Made by a program: the position numbers and the translations under genes. 64,000 bases of DNA from the NCBI GenBank assembly GCA_964016885.1, contig OZ024741.1, forward strand, positions 75,764,001-75,828,000, read 5' to 3'. Under the pieces are notes generated by a model. That model worked only from the letters and a program-made list of their open reading frames with translations, did no database searches and was not told the origin of the DNA. Of the stretch, positions 13,930-57,978 are shown in pieces; the stretch's first letter is position 1, and the number at the start of each line of letters is the position of its first letter. The stretch comes from Eledone cirrhosa (taxonomy: Eukaryota).

Positions 13930-13984
13930 ACTGCTATATATATTTCAGTGACAGCCATCTTTGGCTGTGACCTCTTCAGGCAGT
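13930..13984 (-). ncRNA. Minimal type I hammerhead ribozyme (inverted-arm copy)
   Basis: Reverse-complement copy of 14307-14361 (loop II aaga instead of atga). Confidence 0.8.
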
Positions 13985-14306
13985 TTGAATTAGTATGGTA
14001 TAGAAAAGTACATATGTTGTTTAGGTGTATATTGCCAATACTCTGATATGCCCAGTTCCTTGTTGGGTTGTTAATTCACTGAGGAACTGGAGTCATATGA
14101 ATTCAAACAAACGAATTTCAGTGTCAAAGGTAACTGACCAATGAGAGGAGAAGGGGACCTTTGACACTGAAATTCGTTTGTTTGAATTCATATGACTCCA
14201 GTTCCTCAGTGAATTAACAACCCAACAAGGAACTGGGCATATCAGAGTATTGACAATATTATACACCTAAACAACATATGTACTTGTCTATACCATACTA
14301 ATTCAA

Positions 14307-14361
14307 ACTGCCTGAAGAGGTCACAGCCAATGATGGCTGTCACTGAAATATATATAGCAGT
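14307..14361 (+). ncRNA. Minimal type I hammerhead ribozyme
   Basis: actgc-CTGAAGA-ggtcacagcca(atga)tggctgtcact-GAAA-TATATA-TA-gcagt; stems I and II pair. Confidence 0.82.
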
Positions 14362-14713
14362 AATAAACGAAGCTAAATTTTAAACATTTGACTTTTTATT
14401 TTATTTTACATTATTCCGGAGTAACCAAACCAACCTGCGCACTTCGTCAAGTGCGCCAATCTGCATACTGTGGTGTTGGTATACAACCAACATATACTAA
14501 AAAAAAAAAATATATATATATATATATATATATATTTATTTATGTGTAGATATATATAAATATATATATATATATATGTATATATGTATATATATATATA
14601 TATGTATATGTATATATATATATGTATATATATGTATATATATACATATATATGTATATATAATTAAAAAATAACAGGAGACTGGACGGGTGTAAATCCT
14701 TGAAAGGTTTATT

Positions 14714-14771
14714 ATACTATGATCATTTCAATGACCGGGTTCGGTATGAATCCGGTGATATCATCAGGTAT
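14714..14771 (-). ncRNA. Minimal type I hammerhead ribozyme within element 14662-15057
   Basis: Minus strand: atac-CTGATGA-tatcaccggattc(atacc)gaacccggtcatt-GAAA-TGATCA-TA-gtat. Confidence 0.75.
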
Positions 14772-15231
14772 TCGAACATATATAATCAAGGTTTAGCAAA
14801 TAAGAAAAAGTTTTAAAATAAATTTTTTAAAATTCACTGTACCTGCTATGGTTACCTTTACCGTACGGTTTTGAGTCTCAAAAATAAATGGATAGTCCTT
14901 ACGGGCCTCCATTGAAAAGAAAAACTCTCGTCAGAAGGTTTTTTTCAGTCCGAGAATATAAAATTCCCGAGTTCGAATTACGAACTGGCGCTATTCAAAA
15001 TTGTTCCCGAGATGAGAATGAATGATGTGGAAGCAATTCTGTCCAGTGACGTGTGCATATATATATATATACCTATATATATATATAAATATATATGTAG
15101 AAGTTCTATTTAAATTGTTGGGATACAACAAGCAAATATTTTTATAACTGATATAAAGCACTCAACAAATTATTGGAATAAAAATACGATATATTAACAA
15201 ATGGAAACTATATTTATAAAACCATATTTAT

Positions 15232-54500: not shown

Positions 54501-54659
54501 GATATTGCCTGCGTTTTTATCATTACCTTTGTGTTGAGAAATTAACTCTCACTCGACATGGTGTTAAGTGAAATCTCTTATCTTTCCTTAAAAACTTAGT
54601 AGTTAGATTCCGGTGGTATTTACTCGAGTGAATAACTCCGGGTCTAGCAGCACACTAAA
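51557..54659 (+). mobile_element. Ty3/Gypsy LTR retrotransposon, internally deleted
   Basis: 5' LTR remnant 51557-51889 matches 54327-54659; PBS TGGTGACCCGACGT (tRNA-Trp-like) at 51891; PPT gagagggga before TG at 54155. Confidence 0.9.
52363..53790 (+). pseudogene. Gypsy pol remnant: RNase H end and integrase (HHCC, DDE, GPF), frameshifted
   Basis: NIPADALSR; HSLSHPG...[34 protein letters not shown]. Confidence 0.9.
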
Positions 54660-55199
54660 CTTTCTTTTAAGTCAATTTAAAATGTCTGTTATTTTCCTTT
54701 CTTATATTTATGGAGACAGTATAGGGAAGGAGGAGTCTTCAGTCTTACTGAGTATATGACAACCTAGTACTGCTGCTACAATAAAATGTTTAAAGTATTA
54801 GTGTTTTTGCCATGATACAAAAGCACTCAGTACACTCTGTAACATGATAGTGCTAGTGTCACAATAAAATGAACTCAGTACACCATGTAAAATGGTTGGC
54901 ATTAGAAAGGGCATCCTGCTGTAGAAAAACCATGCCGAAATATGGAACATATGAGCAAGATGTAGTCTCTATACACTACATAATCTCAGATTGTGACAAC
55001 CTGTCCCACTCATATCAGCATGGAAAATAGATGTTAAATGATGAGGGTGGTGATGGTGGTGATGATGACGATGATGATTGGGGGGAGGGGGGTTACTTGT
55101 GACTAAGAATTGTATGTTGTGTGTATGACTCTTGATCCACACATATGTCTATAGAAGACAAAAAGAGAAATGACAATATATAAAACTTAACTTTAAATA

Positions 55200-56125
55200 G
55201 ATTTGAACTTACACCTTGCTAGGTGTAAGCCACTACACCTAGCTTTTGTTAATCTGGAAAAGGCCTTTGACAGAGTTCCATGGTCTGTCATCTGGTGGTT
55301 CTTAAGGAAACTTGGTGTAGATGAGTGGCTTGTGAGAGTAATGCAAGCCATGTGCAGAGATACTGTCAGTAATGTAAGGAATTTAGTGAGGAATTCAATG
55401 TGCAAGTGGGTGTTCATCAAGGCTCAGTCCTCAGTCCACTCCTGTTTATTTTAGTCCTTTGCTGGTAGATGCACAGAAATAGAGGGTAGTAAGAATAGCA
55501 ATAAACTAAACCGTTTACAATCCAATGAGGGTACCATAGAAGTAGTTGATAGTTTCTGTTACTTGGGTGACCTAATTAGCAGAAGAAGGGATTGCTCTGA
55601 AAGCATAGAAACTAGAATAAGAACAGACTGGAAAAGGTTTAGACAGCTACTATCTCTGTTGAAAACAAAGGGATTTTCTCTATAAGCAAAGGGTAGATTG
55701 TATGATATCTGCATGAGAAATGCAATGTTGCATAGCAGTAAGACATAGGCAGTAAATGCAGAGGTTATACAGAGGCCGCAGGAATCTGAAGCAAGCATGC
55801 ACCATTGACTAAACTGAGAAAAACCAGATATAAGGGGAATCAGATGTAATGTGCATGAGAGAAGATGTTGCTAGTATGAACATGTGATGTATATGGATGA
55901 TGGTCACTGGGGAAAAAAAGGCAAGGAGATGCTAGTGAAAGGAAGCTACAGTAAAGAAAGACTGAGAAAAACCTGACAGAGACTGTTAAAGCTGATCTCA
56001 AAATGCTGAATCTCACAGTGGTGTTGATGAAGGAATGCTACAGGAGGAGAAAGGTTGTACTGGAGAAGATCTGTCTAACCCATGCAAGCATGAAAAAACT
56101 GATGTAAAATGATGATGAGGATGAT
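55200..56125 (+). mobile_element. Old degenerate RTE LINE
   Basis: LAFVNLEKAFDRVP, FCYLG and other fragments with many stops; (GAT)-like tail. Confidence 0.85.
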
Positions 56126-57597
56126 AGATCAACTGCTCTGCCACAGCTAGCTTGCCTTTACCAAACATAAAAAGGACATTTCGATATGTTACAATATATC
56201 AGGTAGAGGGTCGGATGCCATGCTTTCCAGCATAGAGTTACGCCTCTTTATGGTCTGAATTCAAATCCCACCGAGGTTAACTTTGCCTTTCCTCCTTATG
56301 AGGTTGATAAAATAAAGTACCAGTAATGCATTGTGATAATTGCTGGCCTTGTGCCAAAAGTAGAAAAAATTATTATTCTTAATAAGATTTGCATAAGTGT
56401 CATGTTACTTGAAACCATAAGTATATGTCAATCACTTTCAGAAGAATAAAACAACTCTGTAGCTAACTAACCATTTATTACATATAGACACGTACATATA
56501 AAAGATATTTTATGTATCCCACCATGTTATGTCAGTTTGTTATTATGTAATCCTATTTTTCCCTTATTTTTTCTCATCTATCCACATTTTCCTCTATTCT
56601 TTTCTTATTTTCCAAAGAAGGATGTAATTTGAAACATTATCATTAATTCCTTTTCACAACTTAACTTTTAATTTTTATTATATCCCATCTTGTTATTGTG
56701 TTTTAGTTGTATATACATATATGTGTATATATAGACCCGTCCAAACCCATGCAAGCATGGAAGATGGACGTTAAACGATGATGATATATATAAATATATA
56801 TATATACATATGTACACATATATACATATATACATATATATATATACACACACATATATATATATATATATATATATATATATATAGAAGGCTTTTAATG
56901 GATACAGTTTAGTTAAAAGGAATTTATTGACACGTGTTTCTATAACAGTTACATAACCTGAAAACAGCTGCTATCTACAAAGTATTAGTTATGCAGACAT
57001 TCAATATTTCAATGTTATTATCAACTGTCATTTCATCGGAATAATTTTACTGAGGACCTGTTTGGTTTTTATAGAGAATATTAGGAGGGAGGGGTGAAGT
57101 TGTTAGAAGAATAGTTGAGGGAGTGATTTTTTGATAGCAGTGAGAATTTTTGGTGGCAGTGAGTAATTAGATTCCCATCTGTTGTTTTGACATTTTTATA
57201 GAATATATTATTGGTTATTTTTCTAAATCTATAGGAGAATTAGAGATAGTAAAGATATGCGTGGTTGGTTTTGTGTTTGCACTTAATTAACATTCAGACT
57301 TAAATTTTTCTTTCAAGTGTACGTATCCTTTCGCCCACGCATTCACACACAAACATATATGCACACCTCTACAAAATACATATACTCATATACACATACT
57401 TACATGCTCATACTTACATACATATACACATGCATACATATATATATACACATATATACATGTACATACATACGCGTTCATGTGTATACATTTTCATACT
57501 CAACTTATCTTTATATACACACGTATAGACACACACATATATACACACATACTCCAGTCTATGTATATATATATATATATATATATATATATATATA

Positions 57598-57978
57598 TTA
57601 GAAAGTGAGGTTTTTTTTACAAAATGAAAAATAACCGAGGTGTCCTACACGAGTGGAAGTATAAAGAAAAAGGGATGAAATCGAAAATGCAACTGAAGTC
57701 TTATTTTTTTTTTAAATATATATATTTATTTGGTTCCTTTACCGGTTTCGCAGTTCTTCTGCTTTTCAAAAGGTGAGTTGAGATGGAGGGTCTGTGGTTT
57801 TTCTCACATCTGTGGTTTTTCTCACAGATGTGAGAAAAACCACAGACCCTCCATCTCAACTCACCTTTTGAAAAGCAGAAGAACTGCGAAACCGGTAAAG
57901 GAACCAAATAAATATATATATTTTGTTTTAAAATAAGACTTCAGTTGCATTTTCGATTTCATCCCTTTTTCTTTATAT
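57598..57978. mobile_element. Fold-back element with opposing U3-A8 HHRs at 57736-57773 (minus) and 57864-57901 (plus)
   Basis: 57660-57812 is inverted at 57825-57977. Confidence 0.85.

What the first reader, a model, noticed from the sequence alone, without database searches (positions are those of the whole stretch)
13930..57901. At least 8 HHR families, each with a different self-complementary stem III: a possible dimerisation code
Seen, reading A-N-U between GAA and the cleavage base: ATATATAT (14307, 44754), ATGATCAT (14714), ATATGTAT (15232, 22355; self-pairs with two G-U), ACGCGT (16136 array), ACCGGT (20487, 57864), ACAGCTGT (25973), ACCACTGGT (39655), ACTAGT (39887), plus ACACGTGT in a decayed copy near 56929. 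Established: minimal HHRs with too short a stem III cleave as double hammerheads paired through a palindrome. Inference: the palindromic character is conserved while the sequence is family-specific, so each family may activate only with its own kind. This would be an orthogonal self-recognition system among co-resident retroelements that makes cleavage conditional on tandem or high-copy transcripts.
Basis: partly seen in the sequence, partly recalled or inferred. Interest (0 to 1): 0.72.

Follow-up and report, generated by a model that had tools for sequence, protein, structure and literature searches.

The report
Pairing hammerhead ribozymes of Penelope-like elements
The window is packed with hammerhead-type self-cutting RNA motifs from many jumping-gene families; their self-complementary third stem is real and fits the published idea that such motifs likely cut in pairs, but the palindromes are shared between families and missing in one, so they are not by themselves a family-specific code.

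Summary
The motifs are real: all named sites are type I hammerheads, and the 'decayed' site at 56929 is intact, with a 92-nt stem II. They belong to Penelope-like retroelements (Hydra-type and Neptune-like) and to tandem retrozyme repeats. Seven genome patterns give about 177,000 copies. The centre of stem III, which cannot pair within one molecule, is self-complementary in 16 of 20 unfiltered clusters (p about 2e-10) and changes by compensatory steps. That supports the published double-hammerhead model (Cervera 2014). The 'code' fails. ATATATAT is used by family A (10,504) and family C (22,197 copies). ACTAGT serves several repeat families. A 21,496-copy family, also in this window, has no perfect palindrome in 100 of 100 listed copies. 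Cross-pairing between lineages is not rarer than for random palindromes. In the dimer, stem I is swapped too, and it blocks more cross-pairs than stem III (109 vs 25 of 528). Likely self-preference is a by-product of divergence over both helices. One sister pair (C vs C3) is separated mainly by stem III and is a good test case. Cleavage was not tested. The scan reached the same verdict on another piece of this genome (e1-8664523).

The parts
13930..13984 (-). Family A hammerhead (stem III ATATATAT 13936-13943; stem I ACTGC/GCAGT); inverted partner of 14307
   Evidence: family lies 3' of a Hydra-type ORF elsewhere; 10,504 genome matches
14307..14361 (+). Family A hammerhead (stem III 14348-14355)
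14714..14771 (-). Family B hammerhead (ATGATCAT 14719-14726), end of a ~3-kb element with no long ORF
   Evidence: (6,131 matches)
15229..15293 (-). Family C hammerhead (ATATGTAT 15238-15245; stem I TATTTTAT/ATGAAATA)
16003..20150 (-). Family D retrozyme-type array, 310 bp x 13.4, 13 hammerheads (ACGCGT; first 16136-16178, last 19861-19903), U.U at base of stem II
   Evidence: 18,881 genome matches vs 27 control
20487..20524 (-). Family E hammerhead, U3-A8 core TTGAAAA, stem III ACCGGT 20492-20497
   Evidence: (6,574 matches); PLE ORF with RT and GIY-YIG in L233
22353..22418 (-). Family C hammerhead (ATATGTAT 22362-22369), 1.6 kb 3' of ORF 24050-25555
24050..25555 (-). 5'-truncated Hydra-type PLE ORF (RT end plus GIY-YIG) of family C
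   Evidence: motifs as in PMC8557442 section 11; no Pfam hit
25973..26019 (-). Family F hammerhead, U4C core CCGAAGA, ACAGCTGT 25978-25985; 3' pLTR
26604..29354 (-). Hydra-type PLE ORF (RWR, DKT, CxCX5C, C-terminal GIY-YIG; contains an N gap) between two direct family F hammerheads
29565..29611 (-). Family F hammerhead, 5' pLTR (same strand as 25973, 3.6 kb apart)
30951..30997 (+). Family F hammerhead in the inverted 5'-truncated copy
32686..32730 (-).
   Evidence: 21,496 genome matches
32943..36652 (-). Neptune-like PLE coding region in pieces (RT 33944-35020, GIY-YIG 32943-33947) upstream of the family N hammerhead
39654..39713 (+). Family G hammerhead, 9-nt stem III ACCACTGGT (39697-39705), 2.4 kb 3' of a Hydra-type EN piece at 36850-37245
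39887..39931 (+). Family H hammerhead (ACTAGT 39918-39923); 466-bp tandem repeat elsewhere in the genome
42803..42847 (-). Family H hammerhead, inverted partner of 43594
43594..43638 (+). Family H hammerhead
44485..44539 (-). Family A hammerhead, inverted partner of 44754
44754..44808 (+). Family A hammerhead
56924..57044 (-). Family J hammerhead: intact, core CCGATGA, 92-nt stem II, ACACGTGT 56930-56937; 3' end of the Hydra-type element with ORF 58316-59476
57736..57773 (-). Family E hammerhead, inverted partner of 57864
57864..57901 (+). Family E hammerhead (ACCGGT 57891-57896)
58316..59476 (-). 5'-truncated Hydra-type PLE ORF of family J

Best explanation
These are type I hammerhead motifs at the 3' ends of Penelope-like retroelements and in retrozyme-type tandem repeats, whose stem III is too short to fold alone, so two copies likely pair into a double hammerhead and are predicted to cut each other. 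In that dimer the strands are swapped in both stem III and stem I: the 5' arm of one molecule must pair with the 3' arm of the other (follows from the junction's connectivity; modelled). Selection acts on self-complementarity, not on a particular sequence, so each lineage's palindrome drifts slowly by compensatory steps through G-U intermediates (inferred). A family would mostly cut only its own kind, as a by-product of divergence over about 14-24 bp of stems I and III, with stem I the usual barrier. The likely use is to release unit-length RNA from tandem pLTR or array transcripts (inferred from the literature, untested here).
For: Shown in sequence: 111 hits vs 4 control in 1.39 Mb; 77 of 107 with stem III of 6 nt or more are self-complementary with G-U, 59 by Watson-Crick pairs only. 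The central four bases, which cannot pair within one molecule, are self-complementary in 16 of 20 unfiltered clusters (p 2e-10) and 14 of 15 hand-picked lineages. With one shared stem I pattern, the first 100 of 70,825 matches read ATGCGCAT 37, ATATATAT 29, ATATGTAT 27, ATACGTAT 2, others 5 (hand count). ACAATTGT and ACGATCGT alternate in sister copies. Element context. Computed: homodimer is favoured over two active monomers in 17 of 17 representatives (9-20 kcal/mol), and free co-folding of F gives the strand-swapped double hammerhead. Of 528 pairs, 109 are blocked by stem I alone, 25 by stem III alone, 17 pass both. In family D stem III showed no listed variant in 4 of 4 runs while stem I changed at two places and kept pairing. 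Literature: PMC4209133, PMC7229834, PMC6765202.
Against: No cleavage or expression data. Cervera 2014 found only low activity even for dimers, and Li 2026 saw cleavage in 1 of 9 retrozyme dimers. Family N (21,496 copies) has a central mismatch, and its dimer gains only 1.9 kcal/mol over the inactive monomers. Free co-folding gave an inactive or non-swapped fold for 3 of 5 families (A, D, H). 64 of 66 non-array hits have no same-strand partner within their 10-kb stretch, and 15 of 15 inverted pairs would fold into long duplexes if read through. Nearest-neighbour energies do not model the hammerhead core. The 4-bp thresholds are arbitrary and stem III counts include the invariant A15.1-U16.1 pair.
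Confidence: 0.8

Rival explanations
1. One reading: stem III palindromes are family-specific labels, selected to be orthogonal so that each co-resident family activates only its own kind.
For: In the window 44 of 45 family pairs lack a fully paired hetero stem III. C3 (ATGCGCAT, 20,318 copies) shares the stem I pattern of C but is predicted to be separated by stem III (6-14 kcal/mol); M and M2 likewise (6.3).
Against: ATATATAT is in A (97 of first 100; 10,504 matches) and in 22,197 C-type copies, whose proteins are about 50% identical. ACTAGT has 42,365 matches over at least three stem II types. 20 of 528 pairs are fully compatible vs 3.8-5.1 for random palindromes (related subfamilies included). 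With 19 lineages, 1.27 vs 0.75-1.39: no deficit. Family N lacks a perfect palindrome in 100 of 100 listed copies; 12 of 100 B copies read ATGTTCAT. Stem I is swapped too.
Confidence: 0.07
2. The motifs cut as monomers, helped by loop contacts or proteins; the palindromes are only the two arms of a very short hairpin.
For: Invertebrate retrozyme hammerheads with 2 bp plus a tetraloop cut as monomers (PMC7229834 passages). G (9 nt) and the U family (11-12 nt, variable loops) can form 3-4 bp hairpins. Most copies have no cis partner.
Against: A hairpin does not need a self-complementary loop, yet the centre is self-complementary in 16 of 20 clusters and takes several pair types (T-A, T-G, C-G, G-C). 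6-nt stems (D, E, H) leave 1 bp plus a palindromic tetraloop, the dimer-requiring axolotl type.
Confidence: 0.1
3. The palindrome serves another job (RNA dimerisation for packaging or template jumping, or a protein or DNA site) and cleavage is marginal.
For: Low in vitro rates reported; most genomic copies are truncated, inverted or solo.
Against: The palindrome is fixed in register between A15.1 and U16.1, inside a conserved catalytic core with known core covariation (U3-A8).
Confidence: 0.03

Closest known systems
Minimal and palindromic-helix-III hammerheads in pLTRs of metazoan Penelope-like elements (Cervera and de la Pena 2014, PMC4209133; Lunse, Weinberg and Breaker, RNA Biol 14:1499, seen only as a title and through a review)
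   Same: Type I fold, short stem I, long stem II, palindromic positions 15.2-16.2 and loop 3, U3-A8 core variant, many families per genome, inverted pairs 100-700 bp apart, location 3' of RT/GIY-YIG ORFs, dimer model.
   Different: Stem III inserts here run to 8-12 nt; U4C cores occur in whole families (F, J); several families have 80-96 nt stem II domains; copy numbers are far higher (about 177,000 by seven patterns vs thousands).
Animal non-LTR retrozymes (Cervera and de la Pena 2020, PMC7229834; Li et al. 2026, bioRxiv 10.64898/2026.07.22.740005)
   Same: Families D (310 bp) and H (466 bp): non-coding tandem repeats, low GC, one canonical-size hammerhead per unit, 1-bp stem III with palindromic tetraloop as in axolotl HHR_Amex1, U.U at the base of stem II as in HHR_Amex2.
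   Different: H is slightly longer than 170-400 nt. Expression as circular RNA is not shown here.
Hydra clade of Penelope-like elements (Craig et al. 2021, PMC8557442)
   Same: RWK-like and DKT motifs, CxCX5C linker, C-terminal GIY-YIG, insertion into (TA)n, hammerheads present (families A, C, C3, F, J; G by an EN piece).
   Different: Assigned by motifs only; no tree with reference Hydra proteins was built.
Double-hammerhead of newt satellite 2 and avocado sunblotch viroid (Forster et al. 1988; seen only as cited in PMC4209133, PMC6765202 and PMC6466107)
   Same: Two hammerheads merged through a palindromic stem III; cutting allowed in multimers and avoided in monomers.
   Different: Here many such families share one genome, which raises the cross-talk question.

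Membership tests
PLE pLTR hammerheads (Cervera 2014) | Type I core (CUGANGA or listed variants, GAAA, NUH) with helices I and II | tested here: met
   reversed-sequence controls 1, 4 and 2 hits
PLE pLTR hammerheads (Cervera 2014) | Very short helix III with palindromic sequence | tested here: met
   16 of 20 clusters; imperfect in family N
PLE pLTR hammerheads (Cervera 2014) | Located in the terminal repeat 3' of an RT plus GIY-YIG ORF | tested here: met
   A, C, C3, E, F, J, N; G by an EN piece only; B has no long ORF in 2 of 2 loci read
PLE pLTR hammerheads (Cervera 2014) | Self-cleavage as a dimer, not as a monomer | not testable with these tools
   folding energies only
Non-LTR retrozymes (D, H) | Non-coding tandem repeat of a few hundred bp with one type I hammerhead per unit | tested here: met
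   310 bp x 13.4 with 13 motifs; 466-bp spacing for H
Non-LTR retrozymes (D, H) | Expressed as linear and circular RNA | not testable with these tools
Hydra clade PLEs | RWK and DKT motifs, CxCX5C linker, C-terminal GIY-YIG without CCHH | tested here: met
   RWR, DKT, CNCRANRTC in ORF 26604-29354; motif scan of fetched ORFs; definition; absence of CCHH judged by eye
Hydra clade PLEs | Placement in the clade on an RT tree with reference sequences | not tested
   tree holds only this genome's ORFs
   A and C share ATATATAT; ACTAGT shared; K and M share ACAATTGT; C carries several
   20 vs 3.8-5.1 of 528; 1.27 vs 0.75-1.39 of 171
   109 pairs blocked by stem I only, 25 by stem III only; computed from base pairing, thresholds arbitrary
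   bench test

The most novel reading that the evidence does not exclude
Sister Penelope-like families that keep the same stem I become isolated at the ribozyme level when their palindrome walks, through G-U intermediates, to an incompatible sequence (ATATATAT/ATATGTAT vs ATGCGCAT in C and C3, each over 20,000 copies; ACAATTGT vs ACGATCGT in M and M2), and selection favours this because it stops one family's RNA from being cut in trans by another's: speciation of retroelements by an RNA-RNA incompatibility.
Probability: 0.08. Interest if true: 0.65.

Novelty: new member of a known kind. Interest (0 to 1): 0.24.

Why it matters
The palindrome and the dimer model are published, so the main result is ordinary. 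What this genome adds is a natural panel for testing the model: two large families with the same palindrome and different stem I (A and C1), and two with the same stem I pattern and different palindromes (C and C3). The compensatory series in bases that cannot pair within one molecule is good comparative evidence that intermolecular pairing is under selection. If the C/C3 isolation were selected, it would be a first case of self/non-self discrimination among retroelements by ribozyme pairing; the data here give no sign of such selection.

Tried and rejected
Rfam at gathering score: 0 matches; E-value mode gave mostly microsatellite noise, and 105 lower rows were not shown. Pfam did not recognise the Hydra-type ORFs, so the clade rests on motifs. 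No RNA holder listed for the D unit; contigs of four runs were laid and used only for sequence variants. Lunse et al. could not be read; it may already discuss homo- versus heterodimers. Paper searches for a family-specific or orthogonal palindrome code listed none by title or abstract start; the library lacks most subscription papers. File 1 of the Cervera 2014 supplement and the supplements of the 2026 preprint were not seen and may bear on known stem III variety. 'Decayed copy at 56929' rejected. A dimer with only stem III swapped rejected on connectivity. The RT tree puts A with F (85/87) and C3 with C (88/90), both below the starred threshold and with a long-branch warning, so it cannot say whether A and C share ATATATAT by descent or convergence. 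A look-up of the J motif in earlier findings gave nothing. A candidate at about 990(+) was dropped: no stem II.
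Full report
Observation. A descriptor that does not look at stem III found the named motifs at the named places (coordinates). It gave 28 rows in the window and 1 in the reversed window. ACCACTGGT has nine bases and a central C. Two families use known or plausible core variants: E has U3-A8 (described in PMC4209133), F and J have C at position 4. 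The site near 56929 is not decayed. Its first core strand is at 57039(-), 92 bases of stem II away (fold z -3.7), and 31 of 42 listed genome matches are identical over all 181 bases.

What the motifs belong to. The window lies in a 3.0-Gb animal genome. Two same-strand F motifs flank ORF 26604-29354, with an inverted third copy upstream: the usual layout of a Penelope-like element (PLE; layout). That ORF has RWR, DKT and CxCX5C motifs, which match the Hydra clade. C, J and G lie 1.4-2.4 kb 3' of related ORF pieces, and N lies about 200-250 bases 3' of a Neptune-like GIY-YIG. In 20 loci fetched for the purpose, A, C, C3 and J sat 3' of Hydra-type ORFs, E 3' of a 770-aa RT plus GIY-YIG ORF, and B flanked a 3-kb element with no long ORF. 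D is a 310-bp array and H a 466-bp repeat elsewhere: retrozyme type. Whole-genome pattern counts: D 18,881 (control 27), ACTAGT group 42,365 (796), C type 70,825 (0), A 10,504 (0), B 6,131 (2), E 6,574 (0), N 21,496 (0); sum 176,776.

Is the palindrome real and selected? I sampled 139 evenly placed 10-kb stretches. The blind scan gave 111 hits against 4 in reversed sequence. Of 107 with stem III of six bases or more, 59 were perfect palindromes and 77 were with G-U. A second scan for long stem II gave 17 hits (window included) against 2. The central four bases cannot pair within one molecule. They are self-complementary in 16 of the 20 even-length clusters among all 31 clusters, none dropped (p 2e-10; 10 of 12 multi-copy clusters, p 3e-7). 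Clusters are not fully independent. The hand-picked set gave 14 of 15; it left out about ten singletons that looked like chance hits, and counting five of them as failures still gives 5e-8. With one stem I pattern and stem III left free, the first 100 matches read ATGCGCAT 37, ATATATAT 29, ATATGTAT 27, ATACGTAT 2, ATACGCAT 2 and three single variants (hand count). This is a compensatory series with G-U intermediates. Intermolecular pairing is therefore very likely under selection.

Is it a family code? Four tests say no. First, sharing: ATATATAT is in 97 of the first 100 A copies and in 22,197 C-type copies, although the two proteins are about 50% identical. ACTAGT comes with at least three stem II types and four stem I types; ACAATTGT serves two families. 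Second, universality: N has no perfect palindrome in 100 of 100 listed copies, and 12 of 100 B copies read ATGTTCAT (hand counts). Third, orthogonality: among 33 chosen representatives, 20 of 528 pairs have a fully paired hetero stem III against 3.8-5.1 for random palindromes (related subfamilies inflate this). Collapsed to 19 lineages it is 1.27 against 0.75-1.39 of 171: no deficit. Fourth, the determinant: in a double hammerhead the strand carrying U16.1 continues into the 3' arm of stem I, so stem I is intermolecular too. This follows from connectivity; I found no passage that states it, and free co-folding of F produced it. By a 4-bp rule, 109 pairs are blocked by stem I alone, 25 by stem III alone, and 17 pass both. 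In the window 6 of 45 pairs pass on stem III, 1 on stem I and none on both. In family D, two stem I positions vary in 4 of 4 runs while no stem III variant is listed, and subfamilies D and D' share ACGCGT but differ in stem I.

What survives of the idea. Families probably do prefer their own kind, because about 14-24 bp must match. In a few sister pairs stem III is the main barrier: C3 (ATGCGCAT, 20,318 copies) shares the C stem I pattern and is predicted to pay 6-14 kcal/mol in a heterodimer; M and M2 pay 6.3. Nothing shows that this is selected. Position 15.2 is C in 10, T in 4 and G in 1 of 15 multi-copy clusters, which fits the recalled preference for GUH and AUH cleavage triplets and narrows the available palindromes.

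Conditional cleavage. A partner in cis exists in arrays and between the two pLTRs of full-length elements (F here; also L220, L222, L224-L226, L232). Among 66 non-array hits, 34 were solo in their stretch, 30 had only an inverted neighbour and 2 had a same-strand one; 15 of 15 inverted pairs had their 5' ends facing. An inverted copy is antisense and cannot be a partner. Most genomic copies are thus likely inert by-products of insertion, or need a partner in trans.

Mechanism, by basis. Shown: motifs, element context, palindrome enrichment, compensatory variants, sharing. Computed: homodimer favoured over active monomers in 17 of 17 representatives, but free co-folding gave the swapped form for only 2 of 5 (F, C3). 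Established: dimer cleavage of such motifs, at low rates (PMC4209133), and of axolotl retrozymes. Inferred: release of unit RNA from tandem transcripts; drift of palindromes. Untested: any cleavage or expression.

Papers seen. PMC4209133: parts 1-2 of 4 of the text and supplement passages. PMC7229834: passages and section 14. PMC6765202 and PMC6466107: passages. PMC8557442: passages and section 11. bioRxiv 10.64898/2026.07.22.740005: parts 1-3 of 5. Lunse et al. and Forster et al.: titles and second-hand accounts only. The searches listed no paper on a family-specific palindrome code.

Verdict. Real feature, known kind: dimer-type hammerheads of PLEs and retrozymes. The code reading is not supported as stated.

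Noticed in passing
window 56924-57044 (-); also L036, L044, L101, L131, L136, L161, L172, L190, L198: Several hammerhead families carry very large stem II domains (82-96 nt) with intact cores and palindromic stem III. Family J (92 nt) is young, with many identical copies. Standard descriptors would miss them.
   Followed up: partly
window 25973-26019, 29565-29611, 30951-30997, 57033-57039: Whole families use a CCGANGA core (C at position 4). In the J lineage both CTGA and CCGA occur.
   Followed up: partly
window 14714-14771; L220, L221: Family B is a ~3-kb element with direct and inverted terminal copies and no long ORF: likely a non-autonomous PLE derivative, 6,131 motif copies.
   Followed up: partly
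window 24050-29354, 36850-37245, 58316-59476: At least five Hydra-type PLE families at about 40-55% protein identity, nested in (TA)n tracts. The clade was described from few, mostly cnidarian, families; here family C alone has tens of thousands of motif copies.
   Followed up: partly
L037, L090, L131, L164, L186: A U3-A8 core family with highly variable 11-12 nt stem III that keeps its outer pairs and can form a monomer hairpin.
   Followed up: no
window 13930-14361, 42576-43865, 44485-44808, 57736-57901: Head-to-head inverted pairs form long perfect palindromes (up to 562-bp arms); read-through would give double-stranded RNA.
   Followed up: partly
window 2252-5087, 9714-11471, 46334-50085, 40911-42347, 52544-53790: LINE-type RT ORFs (one with a weak PHD match) and an LTR-type integrase piece; no hammerhead linked to them.
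   Followed up: no
window 16003-20150; runs X1, X4-X6: The D unit is held, with a head-to-tail joint, in runs under four organism labels, so the family is shared among related taxa or samples.
   Followed up: partly
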